Shown here in pieces: positions 6,325 to 51,536 of a stretch of DNA of 53,945 bases. The notes under the pieces are model-generated. The model worked only from the letters and a program-made list of their open reading frames with translations. It had not been told where the DNA came from and did no database searches. Every line of letters starts with the position of its first letter. Position 1 is the stretch's first letter. Origin of the DNA: an uncultured Methanosarcinales archaeon (GTDB lineage Archaea; Nanobdellota; Nanobdellia; Woesearchaeales; GW2011-AR9); the NCBI GenBank assembly GCA_964460195.1, contig CAYWPJ010000006.1, positions 1 through 53,945 of the forward strand, read 5' to 3'. The position numbers and the translations under genes were made by a program.

Positions 6325-6501
6325 ATGGTCGAGCATATCCACCAATGCCCTTCCTGCCGGAAGTATACTCTGGAAGAAAAGTGCTCCTGCGGCAAAAAGA
6401 CCCTGATTCCCCGGCCGCCCAAATTTTCCCTGGAAGACAAGTATGCCGGGATAAGGAGGCAGGCTAAAAAGAAAGAATGGCAAGAGAGCGGCCGGCTGTG
6501 A
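6325..6501 (+). CDS. nop10: H/ACA RNP protein Nop10
   Basis: Not in the ORF track (58 aa). Hand translation gives MVEHIHQCPSCRKYTLEEKCSCGKKTLIPRPPKFSLEDKYAGIRRQAKK.., with the zinc ribbon plus the P.KFS.EDKY hallmark. Confidence 0.85.
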   Translation: MVEHIHQCPSCRKYTLEEKCSCGKKTLIPRPPKFSLEDKYAGIRRQAKKKEWQESGRL

Positions 6502-6570
6502 GAGGTGATTCTTAGCGTTTGGTATAACTTTGCGTTACCATTAAACTCTTCCGGCAACGAAGGGAGAGAT

Positions 6571-6594
6571 ACGAGGAGCGTAGCAACGAAGAGT
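6571..6594. repeat. 24-nt motif copy A (ACGAGGAGCGTAGCAACGAAGAGT)
   Basis: 22/24 identical to 41431..41454. A partial copy lies at 23695..23712. Confidence 0.7.
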
Positions 6595-6625
6595 CAGGTG
6601 CGAGCCTTAGAAAAATACTTATCTT

Positions 6626-6934
6626 TCAATCGTTTATATTTCCAAGAACTATTTTTTCAACCTCTCCAATATCTTCTTTAGAACCAAATAAAGTTATACT
6701 TTGATGGCGATATTCACGCTCATCGCGAAAGACAAGATATTGAAGAACTACGTTCCGTGTGGGAATATGATACATAGAAAAACATGTCTTTCCCATATCT
6801 TGAACATGCGCATTTTCAACTATAGGTTCTGCTCTGACTCCAGGTCTTAATTCATATTTATTCTTCATAAATCTAAATGGACCTTCAGCAGCAAGTGGTT
6901 TCGCGCATATTGTTTTTTTAATATATTCGCTCAT
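6626..6934 (-). CDS. Hypothetical protein (AT-rich island ORF)
   Basis: The track ORF is 6626..7015. The internal ATG at 6934 is preceded by AAGGAGAT 5 nt upstream and by a TATA-like TTTATATA near 6966-6973. No motif recognised. Confidence 0.5.
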   Translation of the reverse strand: MSEYIKKTICAKPLAAEGPFRFMKNKYELRPGVRAEPIVENAHVQDMGKTCFSMYHIPTRNVVLQYLVFRDEREYRHQSITLFGSKEDIGEVEKIVLGNIND

Positions 6935-7174
6935 TTGAATCTCCTTGTGAAGGAAATAAGCTTCAGTATATAAATATTTTGGCCTGTTACTATAAATTAG
7001 TAGCACATAAGGCATTGGAAAATAGAGGAGCGAACAGCCGGTTGCATATAACGATGTGATCGCTGGTTATACCCCGAGACCATATCTTGTCTCTACGAAG
7101 TCTCAATCCATGGCCTGTCCCTTCAATTATTCAAATCCACAACTTTTATTAACTCTTCCCGCTTCTCCCGGTCG

Positions 7175-7447
7175 ATGCCCCTCAAACAAGAGCTTCTGAA
7201 GAAAGTCCCCCAGCACCTGAAAGAAGAGCCTTATTTCGCCGCCCTGCTGGACAGCATCAAAGAAAACAAGATTGAAAGCAAAACCCACCTGGCCGAGTTT
7301 CTCCATGCGGAAATCAGCCGGGTGGAAAAATGGCTGGAAGAAAACAAGGCTCAGGGGGCGACGGCGGTAAAGACCATCCGCGACAAAGCTATCAAATTAA
7401 ACGTGCTCCGGAGATGCGCCAAGCTGACGCAGGAATTCCTTTTTTGA
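7175..7447 (+). CDS. Hypothetical protein
   Basis: 90-aa ORF, predicted helical, no motif recognised. Confidence 0.35.
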   Translation: MPLKQELLKKVPQHLKEEPYFAALLDSIKENKIESKTHLAEFLHAEISRVEKWLEENKAQGATAVKTIRDKAIKLNVLRRCAKLTQEFLF

Positions 7448-7583
7448 CTCTAATTCACTTTGACTTTTTTTCTCTTTTTCCAAAGGGCTTTACTAAATGT
7501 AGAAGATAGATGTAAAGAATGTATGCAATTGCGGTTATGTGTTTTTCTGCAAGATTTCTGCAAGAAAAAATCACCGAAGGCAA

Positions 7584-7605
7584 CAGTATGGCACAGGGGC
7601 GTGCC
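7584..7605. repeat. Inverted-repeat arm (stop-codon-proximal) of the HIT cassette
   Basis: CAGTATGGCACAGGGGCGTGCC ends 1 nt before the stop codon (7606-7608). Its partner is at 8057..8077. Confidence 0.55.
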
Positions 7606-8019
7606 TTAAATAGCTCGTTGAATATCTTCTTTTATTCTTAATAATAAATCTAAAGACATTTTTCTTTTTGGATAAGGAGAATAATTTCCTTTTGGATTGG
7701 GATCAATAAAATCAATTTCGTAAAAATGTTTGGTGTCTTGAAATCTTGGGATTAAATGTGCGTGAAGATGAGGCCATTCGTTTCCTAATATTGCGACATT
7801 AGGCCGGGATTCACCAAATAATTTTGAAACTGCTTTGTGCCATTCAGGAACTACTATTGAAAACAACTCTTCTGATTCAGCAGGTACCATATCTGTAACT
7901 AAACCCGCATCTTCTCGAATGGCCGAAGCATAGCATCGGCCGAGATAAGGGAATTGAGTTTTATGCAGATATAAATCCCAAAGGTCAAATCTTTTTATTT
8001 TAAATTGTTCGTAATCCAT
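7606..8019 (-). CDS. HIT family (histidine triad) protein
   Basis: NEWPHLHAHLIPRF carries the HxHxHxx triad. ATG start; AT-rich relative to neighbours. Confidence 0.75.
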   Translation of the reverse strand: MDYEQFKIKRFDLWDLYLHKTQFPYLGRCYASAIREDAGLVTDMVPAESEELFSIVVPEWHKAVSKLFGESRPNVAILGNEWPHLHAHLIPRFQDTKHFYEIDFIDPNPKGNYSPYPKRKMSLDLLLRIKEDIQRAI

Positions 8020-8056
8020 GTACTAAGAAAAATTTCTATTTACTTAAATACTTATT

Positions 8057-8077
8057 GGCATGCCCAGAGTGATACTG
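8057..8077. repeat. Inverted-repeat arm (promoter-distal) of the HIT cassette
   Basis: The reverse complement of GGCATGCCCAGAGTGATACTG is CAGTATCACTCTGGGCATGCC. It shares the blocks CAGTAT, CAC, GGGC and TGCC in order with 7584..7605. Confidence 0.5.
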
Positions 8078-8124
8078 CACATAACTTGTATTATTGAATC
8101 TGAAGGATTTTACGGGATATGATT

Positions 8125-10956: not shown

Positions 10957-11703
10957 CTAGTCTCTTCTTCTGGCATGGCTGCCAATCTTTTTAATCTTTT
11001 TAATATCATTCACTTTTCCAAAATCAAAGGTTTTTTCCCTGTGAATTACATACACTTTATAGGGATTTATATTCTGCAAAAAAGGGCTTAGCAACTCCTC
11101 TTTCAGGATGTCAGTCCCTTCCAGCAGAGAGTTGAAGCTGGGGAGGACAATCAGTTCCCGGCTTTTCCATTTTCCTTTAAGAAAACATTTATACTTTTCG
11201 CACTTGCTGCCTTCCCGGAAAGTGATGGCCGGATGCCCGTGGCCGATAATGACCTTTTTCACGCCCCGACCCATCTTTTTAACCGGCTCGTCGCCGTGGA
11301 CAATCAAAGCACCACCAAGCTGATATTCCCTGATTACCCTGACACCTCTTTTCTCTGTGACCCTTTCCGTGAGCGGATCATGGTTCCCCTTAATAATTAT
11401 TATCTGCATCCCTTTCGCCAAAATAAAGTCAATCAGATGCAGGACATCCTTCCATTCCTGCCCGAGGACCGCGCCGAATTCGTGTTTCAGGTCGCCGTTG
11501 ATGACAATCATTTTCGGCTTGACTTTTTTGAGGATCCTTTCCAGGCTTCTGATGATCTCATCCCGCTGGAACTTGGGCACCAAGACTCCTTTCCTCTGCA
11601 GGGCTTCCTCATAGCCAAGGTGGAGATCGCTGATGACCAAGACCTTCTCCTTCTTGAAATAAAGGGCGGCGCTAATGATTTCCATGCCTGGGCTGATTTG
11701 CAT
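10957..11703 (-). CDS. Metallophosphoesterase (archaeal SbcD/Mre11-related small phosphoesterase family)
   Basis: Motifs LVISDLHLG, NGDLKHEFG, KGNHD and IGHGHP match the calcineurin-like phosphoesterase signature. Confidence 0.8.
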   Translation of the reverse strand: MQISPGMEIISAALYFKKEKVLVISDLHLGYEEALQRKGVLVPKFQRDEIIRSLERILKKVKPKMIVINGDLKHEFGAVLGQEWKDVLHLIDFILAKGMQIIIIKGNHDPLTERVTEKRGVRVIREYQLGGALIVHGDEPVKKMGRGVKKVIIGHGHPAITFREGSKCEKYKCFLKGKWKSRELIVLPSFNSLLEGTDILKEELLSPFLQNINPYKVYVIHREKTFDFGKVNDIKKIKKIGSHARRRD

Positions 11704-11833
11704 TTTATTTTTGTAAATAAAGCTTTATTTACAGCTTAAAAATGGCTATGCTTTAATTGCATAGCAATTTTTCTTGTTTCCCGGTCGGGAACAACCATTT
11801 TTCTCAACCATTCCCCTGTTTGAGAAAGAAATC

Positions 11834-11866: not shown

Positions 11867-12018
11867 GCCCTGGTAGCTTAGCGGTAGAGCACACGGACTT
11901 CAGGCGGCAAAGCTCCGGTTTTGAAGCTGAGGTGGTGAAGCTGTTACTCGTTAAGCAGTCACCGTGAAGCATGGAAAGTGCTCGGGAACGGTCGCCGGTT
12001 CGATCCCGGCCCAGGGCG
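11867..12018 (+). tRNA. tRNA, probably Asn(GTT), with three putative introns
   Basis: Acceptor GCCCTGG/CCAGGGC. D arm GCTT-AGCGGTA-GAGC. T arm GCCGG-TTCGATC-CCGGC. Anticodon stem CACGG/CCGTG. The 152 nt need about 80 nt of introns. The best parse removes 11897-11940, 11947-11960 and 11968-11989. That leaves loop CTGTTAA, variable loop AGGTC and discriminator G. Confidence 0.7.
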
Positions 12019-23712: not shown

Positions 23713-23780
23713 TTTTTTGCCACCGGATGTAGAGATTGACACCGTAGCATTAGGTTGAGTTAAGTTTTTCGTTAGTAAGG

Positions 23781-23794
23781 CGAGGAGGGGCGTT
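23781..23794. repeat. Inverted-repeat arm (promoter-distal) of the two-gene cassette
   Basis: CGAGGAGGGGCGTT. Its partner at 25723..25737 is the reverse complement with one extra G/C. Confidence 0.65.
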
Positions 23795-23852: not shown

Positions 23853-25226
23853 ATGAAAGAACAAGAAAATCTGCGGATTTTCGGTTCCAGAAATGCGACA
23901 CATTTCTCGGAATCAGAAATACTTGAGTTAAAGACATCAACATCCGAACTGAAAGAGGCGATAATCTCAATAGTTTCTATTCTCAATAAGCATCAGAAAG
24001 GAGAGCTGTATTTTGGTGTTAAGCCGAATGGAGAAGTAATTGGTCAATTTGTCGCCGAGAAGACCATGCGGGATATATCCAAGACTATCTCTGACAATAT
24101 TGAACCAAAAATATTTCCTAAGATTAATGAAGTACATTTGGAAGGAAAGAAATGTGTTCAGGTTGAGTTTTCTGGAGAACACGTTCCCTATTATGCTTTT
24201 GGAAGAGCGTATATCCGCGTCGGAGATGAAGACAAAAAGATTAGCTCGCAAGAGTTAGAAAAGCTGATTTTGAAGAAAAACAGAATCCTATGGGAAGAAG
24301 AAATTTCTGAGAAAAATCCGAAAGACGTTAATGAAGAAACACTGAGAGATTTTGTTGAGAGAGCAAATGCAGCAAAACGAATAGATTTCAAGTTTACCAA
24401 TGCGAAAGCGGTACTGAACAAGTTAGGCTTGTTGAAAGATGGAAAATTACTGAAAGCCGCTGAAGTCTTGTTTTGCGATGAAAACCAACACGAAGTACAG
24501 GCAGCGGTATTTGCAGGAACTGATAAACTGACTTTTCTAGATATTCGGCAGTTTAAGGGAAATATTTTTCAATTGCTACAACAGTCTGAATCATACATTA
24601 AAGAACATATCAATTGGCGGGCTGAACTGAAAGAGCGTATTCGGAAAGAAATTCCCGAAATTCCCATTAGAGCGATTACAGAATCATTAGTAAACTCTCT
24701 CTGCCATAGGGATTATGAAAACAGGAAAGGCAATGAAGTTGCCATCTTCAAAGACAGGGTAGAGATTTACAATCCAGGATTATTTCCGGAGGGTTATGAT
24801 CCAAGAGATTTCTTTACCGGGACTGAAAGATCAATTTTGAGAAATCCGCTAATAGCCAATACACTTTATTTGAGCAAAGATATTGAGCGTTGGGGGTCTG
24901 GAATTAAAAGGATTCATGACGCTTGTAAAGAAGAAAAGGTTAAAGTTGAGTTTAAGAAGCTCAAAAGCGGGTTTTTGGTAGTCTTTGATAGGAAGTTCGA
25001 AGTTATGGGCGGTGTAAAGTTCGGAGATGGTTCGGAGAAAAGTTCGGAGAAAATTTTGGCTTTAATTAAAGAGAATAAATCTATTTCTGCACGAGAGATG
25101 GCTACAATTATTGGAATTTCACAGAGGGCGGTAGAAAAGCAACTTGCCATCCTAAGAAAGGAAAGACGTATTAAAAGAATTGGCGGAGCGAAAGGGGGAT
25201 ATTGGGAAGTTGCGAGTACCACTTGA
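23853..25226 (+). CDS. Schlafen/AlbA_2 domain + HATPase_c_4-like ATP-binding domain + C-terminal wHTH protein
   Basis: N-terminus SESEILELKTS..ELYFGVKPNGEVIGQ is AlbA_2-like. CHRDYENRKGNEVAIFKDRVEIYNPG resembles the ATPase-like module. C-terminus ISAREMATIIGISQRAVEKQLAILRKERRI is a wHTH. Confidence 0.8.
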   Translation: MKEQENLRIFGSRNATHFSESEILELKTSTSELKEAIISIVSILNKHQKGELYFGVKPNGEVIGQFVAEKTMRDISKTISDNIEPKIFPKINEVHLEGKKCVQVEFSGEHVPYYAFGRAYIRVGDEDKKISSQELEKLILKKNRILWEEEISEKNPKDVNEETLRDFVERANAAKRIDFKFTNAKAVLNKLGLLKDGKLLKAAEVLFCDENQHEVQAAVFAGTDKLTFLDIRQFKGNIFQLLQQSESYIKEHINWRAELKERIRKEIPEIPIRAITESLVNSLCHRDYENRKGNEVAIFKDRVEIYNPGLFPEGYDPRDFFTGTERSILRNPLIANTLYLSKDIERWGSGIKRIHDACKEEKVKVEFKKLKSGFLVVFDRKFEVMGGVKFGDGSEKSSEKILALIKENKSISAREMATIIGISQRAVEKQLAILRKERRIKRIGGAKGGYWEVASTT

Positions 25227-25239
25227 GAAAGACGAAAGA

Positions 25240-25247
25240 TTTATAAA
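25240..25247 (+). promoter_or_regulatory. TATA box (TTTATAAA) for ORF 25281
   Basis: Lies 34-41 nt upstream of the ATG at 25281. Confidence 0.4.
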
Positions 25248-25280
25248 TGGGGGTGTTTTTAGGGGTGTTAGGGGTTAAAA

Positions 25281-25718
25281 ATGGTTCATTTAAAATATCA
25301 CATTAGGAAGCTTCGGTACGGATCTAATGGTAGATGGAACTCTTGGGAATACGAAGCATTTTCCGATAAACCAGATTATAAAGCCTACTATGGTGAACAA
25401 AGTGGAATATCCGCAAGACACCTTACTATTGACTCACTTGCCCGAGAATTATCAACGTATCCTGGTATTACTAATACCAGTTTTGTCCCAGAAGAAAGAT
25501 TAACATTTCCTGGCGTTACTAATGTAAGTTATTTGGCTTCAGAAAAAATAAGGGACTGTGTAAAGGGAGTCCAAATTGTAACTTCTACTCCTACTAATAC
25601 CACATTCATGCAATGGAGTACCGTCAGCGATGAGGAACTAGGCGAATTGACATCAAAGATTTTTGAACACTATAAAGAACGTAGAGAAAAGACTGGTGAA
25701 TTTGTTGCCTGTATATAA
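25281..25718 (+). CDS. Hypothetical protein
   Basis: 145-aa AT-rich ORF downstream of the Schlafen-like gene. No motif recognised. Confidence 0.45.
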   Translation: MVHLKYHIRKLRYGSNGRWNSWEYEAFSDKPDYKAYYGEQSGISARHLTIDSLARELSTYPGITNTSFVPEERLTFPGVTNVSYLASEKIRDCVKGVQIVTSTPTNTTFMQWSTVSDEELGELTSKIFEHYKERREKTGEFVACI

Positions 25719-25722
25719 GTAA

Positions 25723-25737
25723 AACGCCCCCTCCTCG
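25723..25737. repeat. Inverted-repeat arm (stop-codon-proximal) of the two-gene cassette
   Basis: AACGCCCCCTCCTCG starts 4 nt after the stop codon at 25716-25718. Confidence 0.65.
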
Positions 25738-25874
25738 TTAATAATTCTACCTTTTTTACGTCGTTTAGCGTAGGTGCCAATCTCAAAGTTTATCCAAAAG
25801 AACGTCAGCACAAGAAGGTCAAAGGTGGCCAAAAAATTGAAGTTAACGGTCTTTATCGTCCGCCCAGGCAGTCA

Positions 25875-27707: not shown

Positions 27708-28547
27708 TTATGGTGACAAAAGAGGAAGTAGATGCCTAAGATCCGATGATGGTCCTTTAGCATCAATATAATAGATACGTTCCCGCAGATCTGGGTTTGC
27801 CAGTACTTTTTCCTCAAGAAAATCCTGTAATGGTTTGTTATAATTAAAAGCTATTCCTATACCTCCCTTTTCTGCTATTCCAAGAATTCCACCACTATCC
27901 CCCATAGTGTCCCCAATATGAGCAATTTGTGCTGATGATATTTCGGGGAAATATTTTTGTGCATATTCGACAACCAACAGAGCTTTTGCAGTCTCATCAA
28001 CGATGCCTAATTCTATTATGCCGGTGGCTTGAAGAGAGTCATAAATACCACTTCTCGTTGCTTCACTATTGTTGAAATAATCTCGGACAATTTTTTCCAA
28101 TTCAACCTCATTTAACGTAGCTTGGACATCACCATCCCAACCAAATTTCAAATAATTTCCAATAAAGCCATTAATTCTGTAAAATCCAATTTGTTCCCGA
28201 ATAGAATAGAAAGTAACAGAGTATCCGGTGGAATTGATGACAAAGGGAATGCTCCTCATCCCTAATGCATTGACAAAATCAAAAAAACCTGTAACATATT
28301 CCATACGTGTCTTTGTATAATCTATTGCTTGCCGTAGTGTAAGGCCTTTAGTTAACGGGCCAGCATTAGAAAAAGCTTCTTCCATCGATGCCATGCCGGA
28401 AGTTTGTTTCTTAAAAACAGCATCTGCTTCCCTAAACTTTTCTTCACCGATGTACTGTCGAATCATATCACTCATGGTGTGTTGATGCACTAACGTTCCG
28501 TTTAAATCCGAAGAGACAAGACTGATTGGAAGTACTTTTTGTTTCAT
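27708..28547 (-). CDS. HAD-superfamily (subfamily IB-like) protein with D-x-N motif I
   Basis: Motif I is SSDLNGTLV, motif II VINSTG, motif IV IGDTMGDSGG. AT-rich. Confidence 0.55.
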   Translation of the reverse strand: MKQKVLPISLVSSDLNGTLVHQHTMSDMIRQYIGEEKFREADAVFKKQTSGMASMEEAFSNAGPLTKGLTLRQAIDYTKTRMEYVTGFFDFVNALGMRSIPFVINSTGYSVTFYSIREQIGFYRINGFIGNYLKFGWDGDVQATLNEVELEKIVRDYFNNSEATRSGIYDSLQATGIIELGIVDETAKALLVVEYAQKYFPEISSAQIAHIGDTMGDSGGILGIAEKGGIGIAFNYNKPLQDFLEEKVLANPDLRERIYYIDAKGPSSDLRHLLPLLSP

Positions 28548-28715
28548 GATGGAACAGAGAAAACAATATATTAAAAGCGAAGAACGTGAAGCTTTCTTGA
28601 ACTGCTTAAGAGTTTAGGGTCATAGACTCCTGTATGATAATACCACCCATAGATAGTATGAAGGTATAGTTATAATCATAGAAACATTTTTAAATAACTA
28701 CTCAAAAGTAGAATT

Positions 28716-30317
28716 ATGATTAGTAAATTAGCCAAATGGCTCAAACTGACGGCACAGCAAGCTACCCTTCTTCATCTTATGTATTCCCTTCAGGAACAAC
28801 ATTTACCGACAAACCCTATCTCTTTAGAAAAGGCATATCTGCAGCAAACAAAAGTATTTATCCAAAAATCAAACTTATTCACCCAGCTGAAGATTCTACA
28901 AGAGCGAGGCATTGTCACTAAAACCATTAAATCCAACTATATCCTTAATCTTCGGGGTATCCAAGAAGCATTGTTTGTGCAAAAGCAGGAGTTTACCAAA
29001 GACATTGATGAATTAAACCTTTTTATTTCAGATGCTAAAGCTTTCTTTGAGAAAATAATAAAACCAACCGGTGCTTCAGTAACGTACCTCACTGCGGAAG
29101 ATCTCTATAAAAAGTTAGCATTTAATCTTAAAAATGCAACTGCGTATTACTTTGGTTGCGATTTTCCACACTATGCATACACACTTGCATTGTGCACTAA
29201 TGCACAAGAAGCCGCGTATGTTGAAGTGCTTACAGCGAAGATACAGGACAATAATTTTTCATTATTCTGCCTTTCACCGTACCGAATAGAAAGTTTGTCC
29301 TATCGCTTACAAGAGAGGTATAAAAATAAAGAATTCATTAAGGAAGAGCTTAAAGAAGTCTGTACTCGTGCACGGGGGATAACTATTCAATATCAGAATA
29401 TAGAGCTGCGAAAATCTCCCATTCCATTCAATGTTGCTCTAATCGAAAACCCTGCTGAGGGGAATACTTTTTTTATGTTCTTAAAAGATTCAAAAGGGAT
29501 TATTACCGGCGGAATTTTCGTAAATTCCTATGAGACAACAAAACATACGAAACAACACTTTCTGACTCAACTTGGACTAAATCAAGTAATAAAAAAGAGT
29601 GAGGATTTTCCAATCTTCTCTGACACGGAATTTTTGCCAGTTCCTGAAAGTAATAGAAGAAAACTCGTCGCTTTTGATGTCAATCGTATTTTTACTGTTA
29701 ACCATACAACAGTAGAACTCGCAAACCTTGTTGGAAGAGAGAAAGCTGTATTTGGTTTTATTACAAAGCAAATAGAAGGTAATTTAAGTATGCAAGAAGC
29801 TATTTTAGAGAGTGCTCGGCTATTGAAAGGCCTATCGGTAAAAAAAATAGAATCTTTATTACCGAGCATAGCTCTGATAAAGAATGTTAAAAATGGACTT
29901 GTTAAGTTAAAAGAAGCCGGTTATTACATTCTTGCGATATCTTCAGGCTTTAGTCACTTAGTAACTCCAATCTGTAAAGATCTTGGCGTTGATGAAATTT
30001 ACTGCAACGTTTTGGGTGAAAAAGATAGAAAATTAACTGGCGAAGTCATTGAAAGAAGTGTCCTTACTGATGACGTAAAATATTATATTGTAAAATACGT
30101 TCAAGAACGCCTCTCAATACCTCCTGAGAACAGTATTGGTGTAGGAGACGGCTACTCTGATCTTCCACTACTAAAATCCTCAAAAAAGAGAATTTGCTTT
30201 AACCCGAGCAAAAAGATGAAAGAATTATTTGAGGCTGGAGATGAACGTATAACTCATCTCGTAGAAGAACCTGATTTTATGAAAGTAGTAGACTTGATTC
30301 TTGCAGATAAAGATTAA
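28716..30317 (+). CDS. wHTH (TrmB-like) N-terminal domain fused to a SerB-like HAD domain with D-x-N motif I
   Basis: The N-terminus ..LFTQLKILQERGIVTK.. is wHTH-like. The C-terminus has VAFDVNRIFT (motif I variant), AISSGFS and GVGDGYSDLPLL. Confidence 0.55.
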   Translation: MISKLAKWLKLTAQQATLLHLMYSLQEQHLPTNPISLEKAYLQQTKVFIQKSNLFTQLKILQERGIVTKTIKSNYILNLRGIQEALFVQKQEFTKDIDELNLFISDAKAFFEKIIKPTGASVTYLTAEDLYKKLAFNLKNATAYYFGCDFPHYAYTLALCTNAQEAAYVEVLTAKIQDNNFSLFCLSPYRIESLSYRLQERYKNKEFIKEELKEVCTRARGITIQYQNIELRKSPIPFNVALIENPAEGNTFFMFLKDSKGIITGGIFVNSYETTKHTKQHFLTQLGLNQVIKKSEDFPIFSDTEFLPVPESNRRKLVAFDVNRIFTVNHTTVELANLVGREKAVFGFITKQIEGNLSMQEAILESARLLKGLSVKKIESLLPSIALIKNVKNGLVKLKEAGYYILAISSGFSHLVTPICKDLGVDEIYCNVLGEKDRKLTGEVIERSVLTDDVKYYIVKYVQERLSIPPENSIGVGDGYSDLPLLKSSKKRICFNPSKKMKELFEAGDERITHLVEEPDFMKVVDLILADKD

Positions 30318-33438: not shown

Positions 33439-33561
33439 ATGATGAAAAAGCCGGCTGGCTGAGCAAGAGGTAAAAAGCATAAACGTATGCGTCGCTGTTA
33501 AGTGAGCCAAGCCGGAGGTGAGAGTGCAATGTGCCGCCTCATCCCGAAGGAGTGAGAAAAG

Positions 33562-33576
33562 TTGCCCAAAGCCCGC
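33562..33576. repeat. Inverted-repeat arm (stop-codon-proximal) of the MazG-like cassette
   Basis: TTGCCCAAAGCCCGC ends 1 nt before the stop codon (33577-33579). Its partner is at 33972..33986, 13/15 complementary. Confidence 0.7.
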
Positions 33577-33927
33577 CTATTTTTTAACAAGATTATTTTC
33601 AGGATTTTTATGATTATATTTTGCTAGAATTTCTTTTTTAACAAGATTAAACGCTTCTTCAATATCAACATCAAGTTGATTCGCAAGGCGACAAGTGCCG
33701 AAAAACAAATCTCCTATCCCATCAACAAAAATATCTTTATTTTCCTCTACAAATTTTTTGCGTTCTTCTTCTGATTTATATCTCAAATGTTGTGACATTT
33801 CAACAAGTTCTTCATGTAAATGGTCAAACTTATCAACACTTGGCACATCTTTCCAATTGTTACGCTCAGCAAAAAATTTGAGTGATTTCTGAGCTTCTTT
33901 CATTGTGGTGATTTGTTTTTCTTCCAT
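33577..33927 (-). CDS. MazG-like nucleoside triphosphate pyrophosphohydrolase (small, all-alpha)
   Basis: FAERNNW..FDHLHEELVEMSQH and GIGDLFFGTCRLANQLDVDIEEAF match the EExxE/D metal-binding helices of the MazG family. AT-rich. Confidence 0.7.
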   Translation of the reverse strand: MEEKQITTMKEAQKSLKFFAERNNWKDVPSVDKFDHLHEELVEMSQHLRYKSEEERKKFVEENKDIFVDGIGDLFFGTCRLANQLDVDIEEAFNLVKKEILAKYNHKNPENNLVKK

Positions 33928-33950
33928 CTGATTAAATTAAAATCCTAAAC

Positions 33951-33958
33951 TTTATAAA
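33951..33958 (-). promoter_or_regulatory. TATA box (TTTATAAA) for the MazG-like gene
   Basis: Centred about 27 nt upstream of the ATG at 33927 (leaderless geometry). It lies between the ORF and the distal IR arm. Confidence 0.55.
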
Positions 33959-33971
33959 CCAATTGCTTTTA

Positions 33972-33986
33972 GCGGGCGTAGGGCAA
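33972..33986. repeat. Inverted-repeat arm (promoter-distal) of the MazG-like cassette
   Basis: The reverse complement of GCGGGCGTAGGGCAA is TTGCCCTACGCCCGC, compared with TTGCCCAAAGCCCGC. Confidence 0.7.
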
Positions 33987-33999
33987 TTTCAAACAAAAG

Positions 34000-38933: not shown

Positions 38934-39079
38934 CGGAAGACATAATTATTTATACAAATTAGTTATGTCTTCCGAATATAGTAACTGATACTTTGTATAA
39001 ATATTTAAGTCAGTTACTATATAACAAAAACCGCACTAATCCCGGACAATTTTCAATAAACAAATGTCTGTCAAGACAA

Positions 39080-41295: not shown

Positions 41296-41430
41296 GGGTG
41301 CCAAGGGGCTTTAGACCCACTAATTCTTTGTAAAGTACCGACCGCAATGAATTAAATGCCGTTAAGTCCTCGGGGCTTTAAGCGAGCCAGACTAAAATTT
41401 GTTTATCAGATATCTGGCGAGCGTGCCCCG

Positions 41431-41454
41431 ACGAGGAGCATAGCGACGAAGAGT
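41431..41454. repeat. 24-nt motif copy B (ACGAGGAGCATAGCGACGAAGAGT)
   Basis: 22/24 identical to 6571..6594. It directly abuts the outer IR arm at 41454. Confidence 0.7.
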
Positions 41455-41468
41455 AAAATTTGAGTTCT
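41454..41468. repeat. Outer inverted-repeat arm, left (TAAAATTTGAGTTCT)
   Basis: Perfect 15/15 reverse complement of 42116..42130. Confidence 0.85.
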
Positions 41469-41500
41469 CATTGGTTTTGTTTAAAGAAATAAGTATAGTG

Positions 41501-41511
41501 GGGGAAGTTCT
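41501..41511. repeat. Inner inverted-repeat arm, left (GGGGAAGTTCT)
   Basis: Perfect 11/11 reverse complement of 42093..42103. It lies upstream of the TATA box. Confidence 0.8.
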
Positions 41512-41528
41512 CAATATTGGGGGTAATC

Positions 41529-41538
41529 TTTATATAAA
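41529..41538 (+). promoter_or_regulatory. TATA box (TTTATATAAA) for ORF 41560
   Basis: Centred about 26 nt upstream of the ATG (leaderless geometry). Confidence 0.55.
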
Positions 41539-41559
41539 AGTAGTAATTTTTATTGTTTT

Positions 41560-42093
41560 ATGGGGGATGAATTATATAGGGCGATTTTGGAAAGAGTAAA
41601 GTTAGTTCCTAATGTTCATATTAGAAAGGATTATTTTATTCCAACAGAAACAAAACTTGATCTCCCAGACATTGTAGGTAACACAACGTATAATGGGTAT
41701 GATGTTCATTGCAGTACTACTTGTGAGGTTATTGTTGGATTTGACACCAGAACAGAAAGAGTAAAAAAATTTGGTTTTCTTCCGTGGGGAAAACGAGAAG
41801 AACCTCTTGCAAGCTTGGACGATATTAGAGAAGAATTGGCAAGTGTTCCAGAAATTGGAGAACCATTAAGTCATAATGAACGCTTCTTGGTTTATGAGAG
41901 AAAGGTAGGAACAGGAGTTTCATTAAAGTTGTTTGATTTAGTTGTTGTTGGCGTAGGGTCTTTCTTAGGTCAACACTGTGAAGCTATCCAACAATGGGAT
42001 GGACAACGTTTTGGAGCTTACGAATGGTTAAAGATTGATACTCCATTTGCCGCACAGTTGAAGCAGGCTCATGTAGCGAGTTACGGACGATAA
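41560..42093 (+). CDS. Hypothetical protein (AT-rich cassette ORFan)
   Basis: 177-aa ORF, no motif recognised, flanked by nested perfect inverted repeats. Confidence 0.5.
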   Translation: MGDELYRAILERVKLVPNVHIRKDYFIPTETKLDLPDIVGNTTYNGYDVHCSTTCEVIVGFDTRTERVKKFGFLPWGKREEPLASLDDIREELASVPEIGEPLSHNERFLVYERKVGTGVSLKLFDLVVVGVGSFLGQHCEAIQQWDGQRFGAYEWLKIDTPFAAQLKQAHVASYGR

Positions 42094-42103
42094 GAACTTC
42101 CCC
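42093..42103. repeat. Inner inverted-repeat arm, right (AGAACTTCCCC)
   Basis: Overlaps the last base of the stop codon TAA (42091-42093). Confidence 0.8.
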
Positions 42104-42115
42104 TACGTACTTCTT

Positions 42116-42130
42116 AGAACTCAAATTTTA
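42116..42130. repeat. Outer inverted-repeat arm, right (AGAACTCAAATTTTA)
   Basis: Perfect reverse complement of 41454..41468. Confidence 0.85.
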
Positions 42131-42134
42131 TTGG

Positions 42135-42152
42135 ACATAATTTAAATTATGT
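42135..42152. repeat. Perfect 18-bp palindrome ACATAATTTAAATTATGT
   Basis: Self-complementary over all 18 nt. It lies 5 nt outside the outer IR arm. Confidence 0.8.
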
Positions 42153-48578: not shown

Positions 48579-48595
48579 TTTTTAATCTCTTTTCT

Positions 48596-49039
48596 TCAAT
48601 CCTCTGGTACTTGGCTAGCCAAAGCGACGGCCGTCGCATAATCCGAAGTATGGGAAAAGCTGACTTTAATTTGATATTTAGCTAATCCCGGCCGGCGGAT
48701 TCTGGCGGCAGGCGCGGGGCTGCCGGCTTCAGCTTCAATCTCAATCTCTTTCAGGGAAAGGTTAAGGGAAGGAATCGCCTTAATGATTGCTTCCTTAGCC
48801 GCAAAACGGGCGGCAAAAGACTGCGCCGGGCTGGGCTTGGTCAGGCAGGTCCTGATCTCCTCTTCAGTGAAGAGCTTAAAGTAAAATTCTTTGTTTTCCG
48901 AATATGGCCGCTGCTCAAAGCGGGCGACTGATTCAATGTCCGTCCCTATCCCCGGCATTCCCTTAAGTATTTTCTCAGACGCATCTTCGGATACTTCCCC
49001 GAGTACTCCTTTAGGCATTCTTCCTGGTCTCTTAGGCAT
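48596..49039 (-). CDS. 4'-phosphopantetheinyl transferase, AcpS type (holo-ACP synthase)
   Basis: GIGTDIESVARFE, FAAKEAIIKA and SFSHTSDYATAVA. The true start may be the internal Met at 48958 (MPGIGTDIE). Confidence 0.8.
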   Translation of the reverse strand: MPKRPGRMPKGVLGEVSEDASEKILKGMPGIGTDIESVARFEQRPYSENKEFYFKLFTEEEIRTCLTKPSPAQSFAARFAAKEAIIKAIPSLNLSLKEIEIEAEAGSPAPAARIRRPGLAKYQIKVSFSHTSDYATAVALASQVPED

Positions 49040-49628
49040 TCCTTCTCACCTCTTTGACATAAAACAGCCTTTTATTTTCCCCCCGCCCTAAAGAGTGGGT
49101 TTCCTTAAATCCGAAATATCGGTAAAGCTGGTTAGCGGTTAAATTATTTTCCTTAACTTCCAGGGCATACTTTTTCACGCCCAGCTCTCGGTACTTTTGG
49201 TCAACCATCTTCATCAGGTTCAGGGCAATGTAAAGATTCCGGTACTTCGGAGCGACAAAAAAAAGGATGAACTCTTCCTTGATTTCCGCCTTCTGGTTCC
49301 CCGCTGGATAAAGCTGACGCAGGCGGAAAATCCTCTTTAGCAGGCCTATGAGGAAAAGCGGTTTCATCAGCAAACGCCGGTAAAGCTGGTTGATATCCCT
49401 GGTCGAGACGGCCGCGCCGACGACCTGCCCTGCCTCATTCAGCGCCGCAAAGCCAAAACAGTTGCCGCTGCCTATCCCGGCATCATAGAACAGGCGGGCA
49501 TATTTTTCTCCCATGTCATAGAGCAACCCCTCCTGCAGAGAGCGCAAATGCAGGGAAGCAATCTCCCAAACATCATTTCGGTCGAGAGGACGATAACTTA
49601 TTTTACTTTCGACTTTTCCCATCTTCAT
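49032..49628 (-). CDS. GNAT-family N-acetyltransferase
   Basis: The core VVGAAV..., YRNLYIALNLM and ANQLYRYFGFK is weakly GNAT-like. It overlaps both neighbours, so it is internal to the operon. Confidence 0.6.
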   Translation of the reverse strand: MKMGKVESKISYRPLDRNDVWEIASLHLRSLQEGLLYDMGEKYARLFYDAGIGSGNCFGFAALNEAGQVVGAAVSTRDINQLYRRLLMKPLFLIGLLKRIFRLRQLYPAGNQKAEIKEEFILFFVAPKYRNLYIALNLMKMVDQKYRELGVKKYALEVKENNLTANQLYRYFGFKETHSLGRGENKRLFYVKEVRRNA

Positions 49629-50461
49629 TCCCCGCCCAGCCGCAGGCTGACCACCCTTTTGAAATAGACCCAGCCGAATTTCAGCAGCGAGGTTAAACTG
49701 CCGGCCGTCTTTGAGCTGCCTTCCAGGCGGTCAATAAAATAATAAGGCACTTCTTTGATTTTATATCCTTTCCGCCCGGCCCGGTAAAGAAAGGCAATGC
49801 AATATTCCCCATAAGTAGAATCGGGCAGGGGGAGCTGGGCCAGGACTTCCCGTCTGGCGGCAATGAAACCGCTGGTGTAATCTAAAACCTTAAAGTTAAG
49901 GATGAAGTTGGCCGCCAGGTTGATCATCCGGCTGGTGACTAAACGCAGCCTTGGCCGGAGATCCTTTCCTCCCTGGGCATACCTCGAAGCGACGGCAATA
50001 TGATTGTTCTCCAGCTCGGCGAGAAGCCGGGGAATGGTTTCGGGAGGCATGGATAAGTCGGCATCCATCCAAACAATAAATTTTCCCTTCGACTCGGCGA
50101 TGCCCCGTTTCAGTGAATTTGCCAGGCCCTTATTTTCTGTCCTCCGGATGACCCTGACCCCTTTCTCTTTGTGCCCGGCACCTGCCGCGATCTGCCAGGT
50201 TTTGTCAGGGCTGTCGTCGTCGATGACAATGATTTCTTTACGGCGCCCGGTGAGAGCCCGATCAATCCTTTCGATTAAATGGGTGATATTACCGGACTCG
50301 TTATAGGTCGGCAGGATAACTGAGATTTCCACTTCCTCTTTTATTCCATCTTTTACTCCCTTGTTTACCTCCTCTTTTATCTCATCTTTTACCCAGCTTT
50401 TTACTTCATCCTTTACTCCACCTTTTACTTCACCTTCTCCCTTCAACTCTTTGCTTTTCAT
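49625..50461 (-). CDS. Family 2 glycosyltransferase (polyprenyl-phosphate hexose synthase-like) with Lys/Glu/Val repeat N-terminus
   Basis: SVILPTYNE, IVIDDDSPD, WMDADLS and YTSGF. The N-terminal 45 aa are VKD/E-x-V/I-K repeats. Confidence 0.85.
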   Translation of the reverse strand: MKSKELKGEGEVKGGVKDEVKSWVKDEIKEEVNKGVKDGIKEEVEISVILPTYNESGNITHLIERIDRALTGRRKEIIVIDDDSPDKTWQIAAGAGHKEKGVRVIRRTENKGLANSLKRGIAESKGKFIVWMDADLSMPPETIPRLLAELENNHIAVASRYAQGGKDLRPRLRLVTSRMINLAANFILNFKVLDYTSGFIAARREVLAQLPLPDSTYGEYCIAFLYRAGRKGYKIKEVPYYFIDRLEGSSKTAGSLTSLLKFGWVYFKRVVSLRLGGE

Positions 50462-50746
50462 CTAAAGAAGAACTGAATCCAAGCCTTTAAATAACTTTTG
50501 AAAGAGTGACACTACCGTCCTCCATACTTTTCTTATAAGGAGTCGCTACCCCCTTATTTCATTTGCCCTTCTTTATTGCTTTATGTTTTTTATAGTAATT
50601 GGTGTAGTACCTGTTAGTTGCCCTAAGCCAGAGGCGGAAGCGCAGCGTGGTCTGAGGTTCGGGTGTTTTAGGAGAAGGAGTATTGTAACTTGAGAGTAGT
50701 TAATAACCGAAAGGTTTAAATACTTGCGGTTAAAATTAGATTAAAT

Positions 50747-51430
50747 ATGGCAGATTCAATATTTAGAGAACTCTTACAGTCAGGAGGGATAGACCCCAAA
50801 CAATTTGCAATTCCTCAAAGTGTACTTAATCAGGGAGTACAATCCCAATTGGATGTTCTTAAAAATAGTTATAAGTGGGGTGATCCTTCATTAGCTGTTG
50901 TGTATGATGAGTTGCCTCTAGAGCAAACTCTTTCCAAAATTAAATTAACCTTGAGGGATATGTTTAACTGTGTAGATTTTCCTTATATTGAAACAAGAGG
51001 AAAGAAGAAAGCTCAAAGTGCACCATCTGCGGATAAGCCTACCTCAGGTTTATTAAGCCACCTTTTTGACGCTGAGGAAACAGACTTTAATCAACCCACT
51101 TTAATTTTATATCATAGTTTTGATGGCATCCCTAGGGGAGTGATCAAATTGATAAAAAGAGAACCGCTTAATGTTGGGGAAGATGCTTGGGAACAGATCA
51201 CACAAATGACTAATTATTTAGATGGTGGCTGTGGTAGGCACTGGACACATGCACACAGTCGTATGCAAAGCCCCCGTTTACCAAAACTTTCCGGAAACGG
51301 CTCTCTTATTAGAACTGCAATTGTAATGTCAATGGATGAAAAGGTAGCTAATAATTGGTATAACGAACACCACACTAGCTGCACTAGATCACATATTGGT
51401 CGTGATTTTCGAGCAAATTATATTTTCTAA
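50747..51430 (+). CDS. Hypothetical protein (AT-rich island ORFan)
   Basis: 227-aa ORF, no motif recognised. Confidence 0.5.
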   Translation: MADSIFRELLQSGGIDPKQFAIPQSVLNQGVQSQLDVLKNSYKWGDPSLAVVYDELPLEQTLSKIKLTLRDMFNCVDFPYIETRGKKKAQSAPSADKPTSGLLSHLFDAEETDFNQPTLILYHSFDGIPRGVIKLIKREPLNVGEDAWEQITQMTNYLDGGCGRHWTHAHSRMQSPRLPKLSGNGSLIRTAIVMSMDEKVANNWYNEHHTSCTRSHIGRDFRANYIF

Positions 51431-51536
51431 AATGAAGTATTAAATCATTGGTATTTTGAGATGCCCCACTTTTAGGATAACAGAAGTATTACCCACCACC
51501 ACAATCCATATAAACATTTCCCTGCTTAAAATAAAG

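What the first reader, a model, noticed from the sequence alone, without database searches (positions are those of the whole stretch)
6500..51490. Dispersed AT-rich promoter+ORF cassettes, each bracketed by short inverted repeats with one arm at the stop codon
Visibly AT-richer single-gene (once two-gene) islands interrupt the GC-richer core genes. In four islands the geometry is the same. One IR arm lies 0-4 nt from the stop codon. The other lies just upstream of the cassette's own TATA box, so it is outside the transcript. The four are: HIT gene (7584-7605 / 8057-8077); Schlafen-like gene plus ORFan (23781-23794 / 25723-25737); MazG-like gene (33562-33576 / 33972-33986, 13/15); and ORFan 41560 (nested perfect 15-mer and 11-mer). 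Weaker versions flank ORFs 20756 and 50747. The arm sequences differ between loci and no transposase or integrase lies in the window. Two models fit. Either these are non-autonomous TIR-bounded cargo elements mobilised in trans, or the cassettes insert into the centre of pre-existing host palindromes, which would explain locus-specific arms. Recognisable cargo is nucleotide-hydrolase or defence-flavoured: HIT, MazG-like and Schlafen/AlbA_2-ATPase. I know of no described archaeal element with this architecture.
Basis: partly seen in the sequence, partly recalled or inferred. Interest (0 to 1): 0.8.

Follow-up and report, generated by a model that had tools for sequence, protein, structure and literature searches.

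The report
Small mobile gene cassettes in DPANN archaeon
The AT-rich single-gene islands in this Woesearchaeota-like contig are real, and at least three are compact mobile cassettes that carry their own inverted repeats between unrelated genomes, probably moved in trans by a recombinase encoded elsewhere.

Summary
The window is a whole 53.9-kb contig of a DPANN (Woesearchaeota-like) archaeon.

**Islands.** They are real: GC3 is 0.20-0.36 in island genes against about 0.6 in core genes.

**Inverted repeats (IRs).** This part is only partly confirmed.
- ORF 41560: far beyond chance (z about 11). It is really one roughly 38-nt terminal IR with a 20-nt indel.
- Schlafen unit and MazG-like gene: z about 3-4, a level that 2 of 43 core genes also reach.
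- HIT, ORF 20756 and ORF 50747: chance level.

**Cross-genome evidence.**
- The 41560 unit (41361-42136) recurs at 91% nt identity in another MAG at an unrelated locus, with knife-sharp boundaries. Its gene and IR occur in five different contexts, with one compensatory change.
- Its non-coding flanks are more conserved than third codon positions.
- The MazG IR recurs in a second genome.
- So the arms belong to the cassette, not to host palindromes.

**Cassette anatomy.** Cassettes also share short GTTAWGTS/SACWTAAC termini and a GC-rich end module. One junction is an 11-6-11 dif-like site. In another MAG, three cassettes sit in tandem near a XerA-type recombinase.

**Best reading.** These are non-autonomous cassettes moved in trans, probably by tyrosine recombination (inferred). 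The kind of element is known; this variant appears new for archaea.

The parts
41361..42136 (+). ORF-41560 cassette, the mobile unit (776 bp)
   Evidence: 91% nt identity to L038 3987-4768 at an unrelated locus. Identity by segment: 43% outside left, 91% end module, 93% IR-to-ATG, 90% ORF, 98% 3' flank, 39% outside right.
41361..41368 (+). Left terminus GTTAAGTC
   Evidence: Homology with L038 starts exactly here. Matches the motif GTTAWGTS; 5 of its 6 window copies are intergenic beside islands.
41369..41453 (+). GC-rich end module (imperfect hairpin CCTCGGGGC...GCCCCGACGAGG, then GCGACGAAGAG)
   Evidence: Conserved with L038. The 23-mer ACGAGGAGCATAGCGACGAAGAG recurs at 6571-6593. Fold energy is not exceptional (z -1.3).
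41454..41511 (+). Left inverted-repeat arm (outer 15-mer + 20-nt indel + inner block), just upstream of TATA at 41529-41536
   Evidence: Conserved in window, L038 and L040. The inner block is conserved in all five loci.
41560..42093 (+). Cargo ORF, 177 aa, no family match
   Evidence: Five homologs at 69-89%. Under purifying selection: 31 of 51 differences fall at third codon positions. AlphaFold model unusable (pLDDT 32).
42093..42130 (+). Right inverted-repeat arm; overlaps the last base of the stop codon
42130..42157 (+). dif-like junction ATTGGACATAA-TTTAAA-TTATGTTGAAT (11-6-11)
   Evidence: Best match in the whole window to E. coli dif, 21/28; only 2 of 200 shuffles reach 21. Homology with L038 ends inside it.
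33485..33991 (-). MazG-like cassette (unit shared with L045)
   Evidence: Alignment: homology runs from the promoter-side arm to about 13 nt beyond the GTTAAGTG terminus. Protein 93% identical.
33497..33555 (+). Terminus GTTAAGTG plus GC-rich end module (TGCACTCTCAC type) on the stop-codon side of the gene
   Evidence: The same module type follows the racemase gene in L045.
33556..33576 (.). MazG IR arm abutting the stop codon (GAAAAGTTGCCCAAAGCCCGC)
   Evidence: Conserved in L045.
33972..33990 (.). MazG IR arm upstream of TATA (33951-33958)
   Evidence: Identical in L045. Homology with L045 ends within about 3 nt of it.
23772..23794 (.). Schlafen-unit left IR arm, upstream of TATA (about 23807-23820)
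   Evidence: score 24.5, p <= 0.005.
23853..25718 (+). Two-gene cargo: SLFN_AlbA_2 + HATPase_c_4 + HTH protein, and a 145-aa ORFan
25723..25744 (.). Schlafen-unit right IR arm, 4 nt after the stop codon
23696..23712 (+). End-module motif GAGCATCAGCGACGAAG left of the Schlafen unit
7534..8085 (-). HIT cassette bounded by a perfect 8-nt inverted pair GTTATGTG (7534-7541) / CACATAAC (8078-8085)
Evidence: Flanks are conserved with L049, where the cassette lies next to a tRNA 3' end.
6554..6593 (+). End-module motifs (2 x GCAACGAAG; 23-mer 21/23 identical to 41431-41453) beside AT-rich ORF 6626-7015(-)
27708..30317 (.). AT-rich divergent HAD-phosphatase pair; no significant bracketing IR
   Evidence: Absent between the same flanking genes in L002 and L003.
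38934..39022 (.). Gene-less compound palindrome holding GACATAA...TTATGTC; possible empty or remnant site
   Evidence: Not followed further.

Best explanation
The AT-rich islands are small, non-autonomous mobile gene cassettes that circulate among Woesearchaeota/DPANN genomes.

ANATOMY. A full cassette reads:
1. A short terminus, GTTAWGTS.
2. A 40-130-nt GC-rich end module with GCRACGAAG or GCAGAG motifs.
3. A subterminal inverted-repeat arm.
4. A self-promoted cargo unit (TATA box plus 1-3 ORFs) in either orientation.
5. The matching arm.
6. The inverse terminus, SACWTAAC.

WHY THE ARMS SIT WHERE THEY DO. The cassette is packed very tightly. The cargo's stop codon falls in or next to one arm, and the TATA box lies just inside the other.

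WHAT THE ARMS ARE. They are part of the element, not host sequence. They are kept by selection.

HOW IT MOVES (inferred). The cassette is excised and inserted in trans. The most likely agent is a host XerA-type tyrosine recombinase acting on the short dif-like junctions, through a circular intermediate. This would give tandem arrays near xerA and single insertions at secondary palindromic sites.

SHOWN: the islands; the cassette-borne conserved arms; the sharp mobile-unit boundaries; the different genomic contexts; the shared termini and modules.

INFERRED: the recombinase, the circular intermediate, and the role of the arms as recognition or accessory sites.
For: 1. ISLANDS ARE INSERTIONS. 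GC3 contrast. L002 and L003 lack the HAD and MazG islands between conserved neighbours.

2. THE 41560 UNIT IS A DISCRETE MOBILE SEGMENT. It is 91% identical over 776 bp to L038, a 36%-GC MAG, at an unrelated locus. Identity drops to about 40% on both sides. The gene and its IR occur in five contexts: L038, L039, L040-43, L044 and the window.

3. BREAKPOINTS COINCIDE WITH ARM ENDS. Homology of the window with L040 starts at the outer-left arm and ends about 5 nt after the outer-right arm. With L039 and L044 it starts at the inner-left block.

4. THE ARMS ARE MAINTAINED. IR scores are 45, 45, 34.5, 18 and 19 in the five loci. L044 carries a compensatory pair, GTTCT->GTTTT with AGAAC->AAAAC.

5. 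THE FLANKS ARE CONSTRAINED. There are 16 differences in 242 non-coding positions against 31 in 178 third codon positions (Fisher p = 0.0008).

6. THE MAZG ARMS AND MODULE RECUR in L045.

7. THE ARCHITECTURE RECURS ELSEWHERE. L038 holds three tandem cassettes. Their stop-abutting IRs are 4877-4890/6971-6984 (14/14), and 7251-7264/8651-8664 (14/14) nested in 7227-7251/8685-8709. The racemase gene in L045 has a 17/17 IR overlapping its stop codon, followed by an end module.

8. SHARED TERMINI AND MODULES. Five of six GTTAWGTS copies in the window are intergenic beside islands (binomial p = 2e-4). All four intergenic GCRACGAAG copies lie beside islands and on the + strand.

9. TYROSINE-RECOMBINASE HINT. 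The site at 42130-42157 is the best E. coli-dif match in the window (21/28; 2 of 200 shuffles reach it). L038 junctions read ATTGGACTTAA-CGATG-TTAAGTCTCCG and occur as direct repeats between cassettes. XerA-type recombinases (NF040815, 214 and 238 bits) lie 1.5-2 kb from the L038 array and the L045 cassettes.
Against: - Within the window, the IR enrichment at AT-rich genes is modest (p = 0.048). Two core genes reach similar z.
- Five of about nine islands show no significant IR.
- MazG homologs in L047 and L053 lack the arms, so the arms are not obligatory for the gene.
- Only one junction in the window is a convincing full dif-like site. A palindromic-consensus scan found no others above background.
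- The left and right junction spacers of the 41560 cassette differ (ATGCCG versus TTTAAA). Simple two-strand exchange would not leave that, unless the spacers diverged later.
- The end modules do not fold better than shuffled sequence (z from -2.2 to +1.1).
- No circular junction or nucleotide-level empty site could be examined. No relative closer than about 69% aa identity was found.
- Only one compensatory event supports selection for complementarity.
Confidence: 0.55

Rival explanations
1. Classical TIR transposition in trans, i.e. a mobile insertion cassette (MIC) or cargo-bearing MITE. The 14-40-nt arms are the ends recognised by a DDE transposase encoded elsewhere in the genome. The GTTAWGTS termini and end module are incidental or belong to a second element into which the cassette inserted.
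For: The arms are cassette-borne and conserved, and they coincide with homology breakpoints. The 41560 arms can be read as AAATTTGAGTTCT.../...AGAACTCAAATTT flanked by TA on both sides, which would fit an IS630/Tc1-like TA duplication. A DDE_Tnp_1 IS with its own 21-nt TIRs exists in L045, so these lineages do have transposases.
Against: No unambiguous target-site duplication at any cassette (read directly); the TA is itself palindromic, so it says nothing either way. No second copy of any arm in the window. The arms differ between cassettes, so several transposases would be needed. The L045 IS TIRs are unrelated to the cassette arms. No transposase in the window. Window-to-L038 homology extends 93 nt beyond the left arm.
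Confidence: 0.22
2. The arms are functional parts of the transcription unit, not mobility determinants. They could be paired binding sites for a regulator or an insulator protein, or sequences that pair in read-through RNA to silence or process the cassette. They travel with the gene simply because they lie inside whatever segment is transferred.
For: The arms sit at fixed positions relative to the TATA box and the stop codon. Arms of different cassettes share G-rich/C-rich words: GGGGCG, GTTGCCC(C)AAA and TTTGAGT (read). The flanks are under purifying selection. The compensatory change in L044 fits a pairing requirement.
Against: The upstream arm lies outside the cassette's own, apparently leaderless, transcript. 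Homology breakpoints fall at the arm ends, which a purely regulatory role does not predict. MazG homologs in L047 and L053 have no arms.
Confidence: 0.15
3. One reading: each cassette inserted into the centre of a pre-existing, locus-specific host palindrome, so the arms are host sequence.
For: The arm sequences differ between cassettes within the window. The outermost junctions are palindromic (42130-42157). A gene-less compound palindrome exists at 38934-39022.
Against: The same arms flank the same gene at unrelated loci in different genomes: 41560 in five contexts, MazG in two. The arms lie inside the segment of 91% identity, whose flanks are about 40% identical.
Confidence: 0.04
4. There is nothing special: ordinary horizontally acquired low-GC genes, with inverted repeats found by chance by a reader who was looking for them.
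For: HIT, ORF 20756, ORF 50747, ORF 6626 and the HAD pair show no IR above shuffles. Two core genes reach z > 3. About 80 IRs of score >= 11 exist in the window.
Against: 41560 has z about 11. Arms are conserved across genomes, with a compensatory change and constrained flanks. The architecture recurs in L038 and L045. Shared termini and motifs are non-randomly placed.
Confidence: 0.04

Closest known systems
Mobile insertion cassettes (MICs) and cargo-bearing MITEs of bacteria (e.g. IS231-derived MIC231; Tn3-type MICs in Xanthomonas, PMC4337579)
   Same: One or a few passenger genes and no transposase, bracketed by inverted repeats and presumed to be mobilised in trans. Dispersed single copies.
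   Different: No target-site duplication was found, no cognate IS, and no repeated TIR family within the window. An asymmetric GC-rich end module and extra short termini lie outside the arms. Each cassette carries its own archaeal promoter packed against the arm.
Xer-dependent elements: IMEX (CTX/TLC/VGJ phages, GGI; PMC5357621) and Acinetobacter pdif modules (PMC6449649, PMC12907356)
   Same: The modules carry no recombinase of their own. They are small (1-3 genes) and bounded by short dif-like palindromic sites. They can stack in tandem: the L038 array lies 1.5 kb from xerA. The cargo is accessory genes.
   Different: Only one junction in the window is a full 11-6-11 site; the rest are half-sites. 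Insertions are dispersed over the chromosome rather than at one dif site or on plasmids. The host is archaeal, where a single XerA would have to act alone. Dependence on XerA is untested. The 2021 review of archaeal tyrosine recombinases lists no archaeal IMEX (PMC8371274).
Integron gene cassettes, including those reported in Archaea (Ghaly et al. 2022, PMC9668308)
   Same: Single-gene cassettes with GTTRRRY/RYYYAAC-like boundary words. There is a structured, sequence-variable site beside each gene, tandem arrays near a Xer/IntI-like tyrosine recombinase, and a presumed circular intermediate. Integrons and CALINs have been reported in Nanoarchaeota.
   Different: The module carries GTTRRRY at its 5' end on both strands, the opposite polarity to attC (R''...R'). 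Cassettes carry their own TATA promoters. The nearby recombinases score as XerA and fall below the integron-integrase cut-off (196-211 bits against 265). No attI was identified.
Phage 'morons' and the promoter-stem-loop (PeSL) cassettes of T4-type phages (from my own knowledge, not checked in the library)
   Same: Autonomous promoter+ORF units of deviant composition are inserted between conserved genes. Repeated flanking motifs are proposed to mediate shuffling.
   Different: Those are known from bacteriophage genomes. Here the cassettes sit in an archaeal chromosome. None were found in IMG/VR.

Membership tests
Integron gene cassette / attC | attC site reads 5'-RYYYAAC (R'') ... GTTRRRY (R')-3' around an imperfect hairpin at the 3' end of the cassette | tested here: not met
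   The modules start with GTTAAGT/GTTATGT and end with a weak RYYYAAC-like word (41361-41453). The polarity is reversed on both strands (sequence read). Rfam scans gave only tRNAs. Hairpin energies are not exceptional.
Integron gene cassette / attC | Cassettes are promoterless and expressed from Pc | tested here: not met
   Each cassette has its own TATA box 20-30 nt upstream of the ATG.
Integron gene cassette / attC | Integron integrase (IntI) next to the array | tested here: not met
   No recombinase in the window. The L038 and L045 recombinases score 196 and 211 bits on TIGR02249 (cut-off 265). Their best hit is XerA NF040815, at 214 and 238 bits (cut-off 220).
Xer-dependent elements (IMEX / dif modules) | Element encodes no recombinase of its own | tested here: met
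   Cassettes of 0.5-2.6 kb hold only cargo ORFs.
Xer-dependent elements (IMEX / dif modules) | Bounded by dif-like sites: two roughly 11-bp inverted arms around a 6-8-bp centre | tested here: inconclusive
   42130-42157 fits 11-6-11 and is the best E. coli dif match in the window (21/28, p about 0.01). L038 junctions fit with a 5-6-nt centre. Other window junctions are half-sites only, and a consensus scan shows no enrichment.
Xer-dependent elements (IMEX / dif modules) | Recombination is catalysed by the host Xer recombinase | not testable with these tools
   The only evidence is proximity of XerA-type genes to cassettes in L038 and L045.
MIC / MITE (TIR transposon derivative) | Terminal inverted repeats at the element ends | tested here: met
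   41560: 38/58-nt arms. MazG: 19-21 nt. Schlafen: 22-23 nt. Short 8-9-nt outer termini in HIT and in L038 cassettes A and C.
MIC / MITE (TIR transposon derivative) | Target-site duplication flanking the TIRs | tested here: not met
   No direct repeat abuts the arms. The TA beside the 41560 arms is palindromic and uninformative. The 15-17-nt direct repeat in L038 is the recurring junction site of a tandem array.
MIC / MITE (TIR transposon derivative) | An autonomous IS with the same ends, or several copies of the same TIR in the genome | tested here: not met
   Each arm occurs only at its own cassette in the window. There is no transposase in the window. The rest of the genome was not available.
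IS200/IS605-derived PATE | Subterminal hairpins at both ends, no TIR, no TSD, strand-specific insertion next to a short target word | tested here: inconclusive
   All end modules lie on the + strand and there is no TSD. However, clear TIRs are present and hairpin stability is unremarkable. No TnpA or TnpB was seen.

The most novel reading that the evidence does not exclude
DPANN archaea, and possibly the CPR bacteria that share the MazG-like cargo at 75-93% aa identity, host an integron-like but distinct cassette system.

- Each cassette is a self-promoted gene carrying one dif-like site, an accessory GC-rich module and subterminal inverted repeats.
- The housekeeping XerA recombinase excises the cassettes as circles.
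- They stack in tandem next to xerA and scatter to secondary palindromic sites across the chromosome.

If so, this would be the first archaeal Xer-exploiting mobile element family. It would also be a main route by which these reduced genomes trade nucleotide-salvage and defence genes.
Probability: 0.3. Interest if true: 0.8.

Novelty: new variant of a known kind. Interest (0 to 1): 0.62.

Why it matters
DPANN archaea have tiny genomes, depend on their hosts, and are known almost only from MAGs. How they gain and exchange accessory genes is poorly understood.

A family of sub-kilobase, recombinase-less, self-expressed cassettes that moves between Woesearchaeota of very different GC content would be a concrete vehicle for that exchange. 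The cargo seen here fits: HIT, MazG-like NTP pyrophosphatase, HAD nucleotidases and a Schlafen/AlbA_2 ATPase.

If the housekeeping XerA drives the movement, this would extend Xer hijacking (IMEX, dif modules) to Archaea. It would also give an experimentally testable recombination substrate.

In practice, the cassette signature can be used to annotate mobile DNA in MAGs. That signature is the GTTAWGTS termini, the GCRACGAAG module and the stop-abutting inverted repeats.

Tried and rejected
- **Exact-protein look-ups** of three window proteins found nothing. The contig is nevertheless in the collection: P0126 is 100% identical and sits on a 53,945-nt contig.
- **Close relatives for nucleotide-level empty sites**: the best was 69% aa identity in GTDB genomes and JGI metagenomes. 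Only gene-order 'empty sites' were possible.
- **tRNA-target idea**: no tRNA lies next to any window island. In L049, however, the HIT cassette does abut a tRNA 3' end.
- **Rfam**, at both gathering and E <= 1 thresholds: only two tRNAs, and nothing for the modules.
- **Module as a stable hairpin or attC-like fold**: energies are indistinguishable from shuffles, and the polarity is wrong for attC.
- **Viral origin**: MazG protein and profile scans of IMG/VR found nothing. A degenerate module pattern gave 72 hits, all chance by BLAST.
- **Palindromic dif-like consensus scan** of the window: only the 42130 site stands out.
- **Looser CATAA-N-TTATG pattern**: 16 hits against 8.6 expected, mostly in coding sequence.
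- **Right-junction multiple alignment** was uninformative.
- **AlphaFold model of ORF 41560**: pLDDT 32, unusable, so no fold search was run.
- **Archaeal dif sequences** could not be retrieved from the open texts. I therefore used E. coli dif from memory as the independent probe.
- **Inversion polymorphism of cargo relative to module**: none seen among homologous loci.

Full report
**What the window is.** aIF2-alpha, tRNA-splicing endonuclease, proteasome alpha, Rpp14, L44e and FEN1 mark an archaeon. The closest relatives of its PK-ATP-sulfurylase fusion are Woesearchaeota/Nanoarchaeia MAGs, at 65-69% aa identity. One window protein is on record on a contig of exactly 53,945 nt, so the window is a whole contig. 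No integrase or transposase domain occurs in any ORF scanned.

**The islands are real.**
- Core genes have GC3 0.50-0.72. Eleven genes in about nine islands have GC3 0.20-0.36.
- In relatives L002 and L003 the order GT2 -> PK-sulfurylase -> kinase -> g34000-homolog is uninterrupted. The window carries the 2.6-kb HAD pair and the MazG-like gene at those positions. At least these two islands are therefore lineage-specific insertions.
- Recognisable cargo: a HIT-like hydrolase, a MazG-like NTP pyrophosphatase, two HAD phosphatases (one UMPH-1-like), and a SLFN_AlbA_2 + HATPase_c_4 + HTH protein.
- The 'nucleotide-hydrolase flavour' holds. The 'defence' label rests only on domain-level PADLOC hits for the Schlafen-like protein.

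**The inverted repeats, tested inside the window.** All four repeats exist at the stated coordinates.
- *Stop-anchored test:* 41560 p <= 0.003; MazG p = 0.01; ORF 50747 p = 0.04; ORF 20756 p = 0.12; HIT p = 0.20.
- *Wider gapped test:* 41560 scored 45 against a null of 17.5 +/- 2.3. The Schlafen unit scored 24.5 (p <= 0.005). MazG scored 21.5 (p about 0.015). HIT scored 16 against 15.9. ORFs 20756 and 50747 were not significant.
- *Control on every gene:* 2 of 43 core genes also exceed z = 3. AT-rich versus core gives Mann-Whitney p = 0.048.
- *Window-wide:* short IRs are about twice as common as in block shuffles, but not at scores >= 13.

On this evidence alone, only 41560 is secure. HIT, 20756 and 50747 should be dropped. 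The 'nested 15-mer and 11-mer' of 41560 align as one long arm pair. The right arm is 42093-42130 (38 nt). The left arm is 41454-41511 (58 nt) and carries a 20-nt indel.

**Evidence from other genomes changes the picture.** ORF 41560 has five homologs.
- In L038, a 36%-GC Woesearchaeota MAG, the gene lies between a U32 peptidase and unrelated genes. Yet window 41361-42136 aligns at 91% over 776 bp.
- Identity by segment is 43% / 91% / 93% / 90% / 98% / 39%. The segments are left outside, end module, IR-to-ATG, ORF, 3' flank and right outside.
- The ORF is under purifying selection: 31 of 51 differences fall at third codon positions. The non-coding flanks are more conserved than those third positions (16/242 against 31/178, Fisher p = 0.0008).
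- The gene also occurs between SpoIIM and LemA (L039), beside HRDC/Bro-N genes (L040-43), and after Vut_1 (L044).
- L040 shares with the window exactly the stretch from the outer-left arm to about 5 nt past the outer-right arm. L039 and L044 share the stretch from the inner-left block onward.
- The arm pair is detectable in all five loci.
- L044 has a compensatory change: GGGGAAGTTTT / AAAACTTTCCC against GGGGAAGTTCT / AGAACTTCCCC.

The arms therefore belong to the cassette and are maintained. They are not locus-specific host palindromes.

**MazG-like and HIT cassettes.**
- *MazG spread:* the MazG-like gene has hundreds of homologs at 75-93% identity in DPANN archaea and also in CPR bacteria.
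- *MazG in L045:* in this 34%-GC genome the promoter-side arm is identical. The stop-side arm and about 95 nt of downstream module are conserved, and homology ends within a few nt of the promoter-side arm.
- *MazG without arms:* in L047 and L053 the gene lacks the arms.
- *HIT homologs* sit in three different contexts. In L049 the cassette abuts the 3' end of an intron-containing tRNA gene.
- *HIT flanks* are conserved between the window and L049, but the claimed IR is not significant in any locus and shows no covariation.

**The architecture recurs beyond the window.**
- L038 holds three cassettes in tandem.
- The second is bracketed by a perfect 14-mer. Both of its arms lie 3-6 nt from stop codons (4877-4890 / 6971-6984).
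- The third is bracketed by a perfect 14-mer nested in a 25-mer. Again this is a 38/59-nt arm pair with a 20-nt indel, with the inner right arm 4 nt after the stop.
- In L045 a racemase gene has a perfect 17-mer whose right arm overlaps its stop codon, followed by an end module of the MazG type.

- *Short outer termini.* GTTAWGTS occurs six times in the window. Five copies are intergenic and beside islands, at 7534, 8078(-), 33497, 38962 and 41361 (p = 2e-4). HIT is bounded by a perfect 8-nt pair (7534-7541 / 8078-8085). L038 cassettes A and C are bounded by perfect 9-nt pairs.
- *A GC-rich end module.* It lies between the left terminus and the nearer arm. Motifs of the form GCRACGAAG or GCAGAG occur in it. 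All four intergenic GCRACGAAG copies lie beside islands, all on the + strand. A 23-mer is shared 21/23 between 6571-6593 and 41431-41453.
- *Either orientation.* The cargo unit lies promoter-first after the module in 41560 and Schlafen, and stop-first in MazG, HIT and ORF 6626.
- *Tight packing.* On the side without the module, the arm abuts the terminus. This compaction explains 'one arm at the stop codon'.
- *Junctions.* Site 42130-42157 (ATTGGACATAA-TTTAAA-TTATGTTGAAT) has the 11-6-11 layout described for Xer sites, archaeal ones included (PMC5357621). It is the best match in the whole window to E. coli dif, a sequence I supplied from memory (21/28; 2 of 200 shuffles reach 21).
- *Junctions in L038.* Adjacent cassettes are separated by direct copies of ATTGGACTTAA-CGATG-TTAAGTC....
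- *Nearby recombinases.* XerA-type recombinases lie 1.5-2 kb from the L038 array and the L045 cassettes.

**Interpretation.**
- *Shown:* the islands are mobile cassettes with cassette-borne, constrained inverted repeats and shared end features.
- *Inferred:* they move in trans by tyrosine recombination at short dif-like junctions via circles. The arms and module would act as recognition or accessory sequences.
- *Weak points in the window.* Only one full site exists in the window. The two 41560 junction spacers differ. The modules are not unusually stable. There is one compensatory event.
- *Missing data.* There are no read-level data.
- *Rivals:* TIR transposition by an unseen transposase (the MIC model) is the main one. 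A regulatory role for the arms cannot be excluded. The host-palindrome model is contradicted for 41560 and MazG. Pure chance remains the best reading only for HIT, 20756 and 50747.

**Comparison with known systems.**
- The elements work like bacterial MICs, Xer-dependent IMEX/dif modules (PMC5357621, PMC6449649) and integron cassettes. Integrons have been reported in Nanoarchaeota (PMC9668308).
- They fail the integron tests run here. attC polarity is reversed, the cassettes carry their own promoters, and the recombinases score below the IntI cut-off.
- They fail the TSD and cognate-IS tests for MICs.
- They meet the 'no own recombinase' test for Xer elements. The 'dif-like ends' test is only partly met.
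- A 2021 review of archaeal tyrosine recombinases mentions no IMEX. Searches for DPANN mobile cassettes found nothing similar.

I rate this a new variant of a known kind, of moderate-to-high interest. The finding as written is partly right.

Noticed in passing
window 11867-12018 and 14928-15067 (+): Two tRNA genes with long introns (spans of 152 and 140 nt). Rfam finds them but ARAGORN misses them.
   Followed up: no
window 33577-33927 (-) and proteins P0006-P0125: The MazG-like NTP pyrophosphatase has hundreds of homologs at 75-93% aa identity. They span DPANN archaea (Woesearchaeota, Aenigmatarchaeota, Nanoarchaeia) and CPR bacteria (Parcubacteria, Patescibacteria). That is unusually high conservation across domains and suggests frequent transfer.
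   Followed up: partly
window 38934-39022: A gene-less compound palindrome between convergent genes. It consists of three interleaved 12-13-nt perfect inverted pairs in the order A-B-A'-C-B'-C'. It contains GACATAA...TTATGTC and TATA-like loops. It may be an empty or remnant cassette site.
   Followed up: partly
L049 about 4600-4790 (upstream of the HIT homolog at 4846-5259): In MAG GCA_016203205.1 the HIT cassette lies immediately downstream of an intron-containing tRNA gene (3' end ...GGGTTCAAATCCCGGCCGGGGCA). This is a classical integration target.
   Followed up: no
L039 about 7042, about 9690 and about 14052 (+): Three copies of a repeated element, GTAC(R)TATTWAGTTAAGTCTGTGCGGGCTTGGTCAAGATGG..., occur within 20 kb of MAG GCA_016203205.1. 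One lies upstream of the ORF-41560 homolog. This is a further type of cassette end module.
   Followed up: partly
window 30491-32875 (+) and 42317-43528 (-): Two unusual fusion enzymes: pyruvate-kinase barrel + PUA_2 + ATP-sulfurylase (794 aa), and RpiB + ribulose-phosphate 3-epimerase (403 aa). The first has 60-69% identical homologs in DPANN archaea and in Chloroflexota, Gemmatimonadota, Parcubacteria and others.
   Followed up: no
window 50331-50438: Seven to nine tandem copies of a degenerate 12-nt unit lie in the 5' part of the GT2 gene 49625-50461 (-). This implies a 4-residue peptide repeat at its N-terminus.
   Followed up: no
window 11712-11733: A perfect 22-bp palindrome, TGTAAATAAAGCTTTATTTACA, lies in the intergenic region between gene 10957-11703 and the tRNA at 11867.
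   Followed up: no
window 90-1112 (+): A second, GC-normal (core-like) HIT-domain protein of 340 aa is encoded at the start of the contig. The AT-rich HIT cassette therefore adds a paralogous activity rather than a unique one.
   Followed up: no
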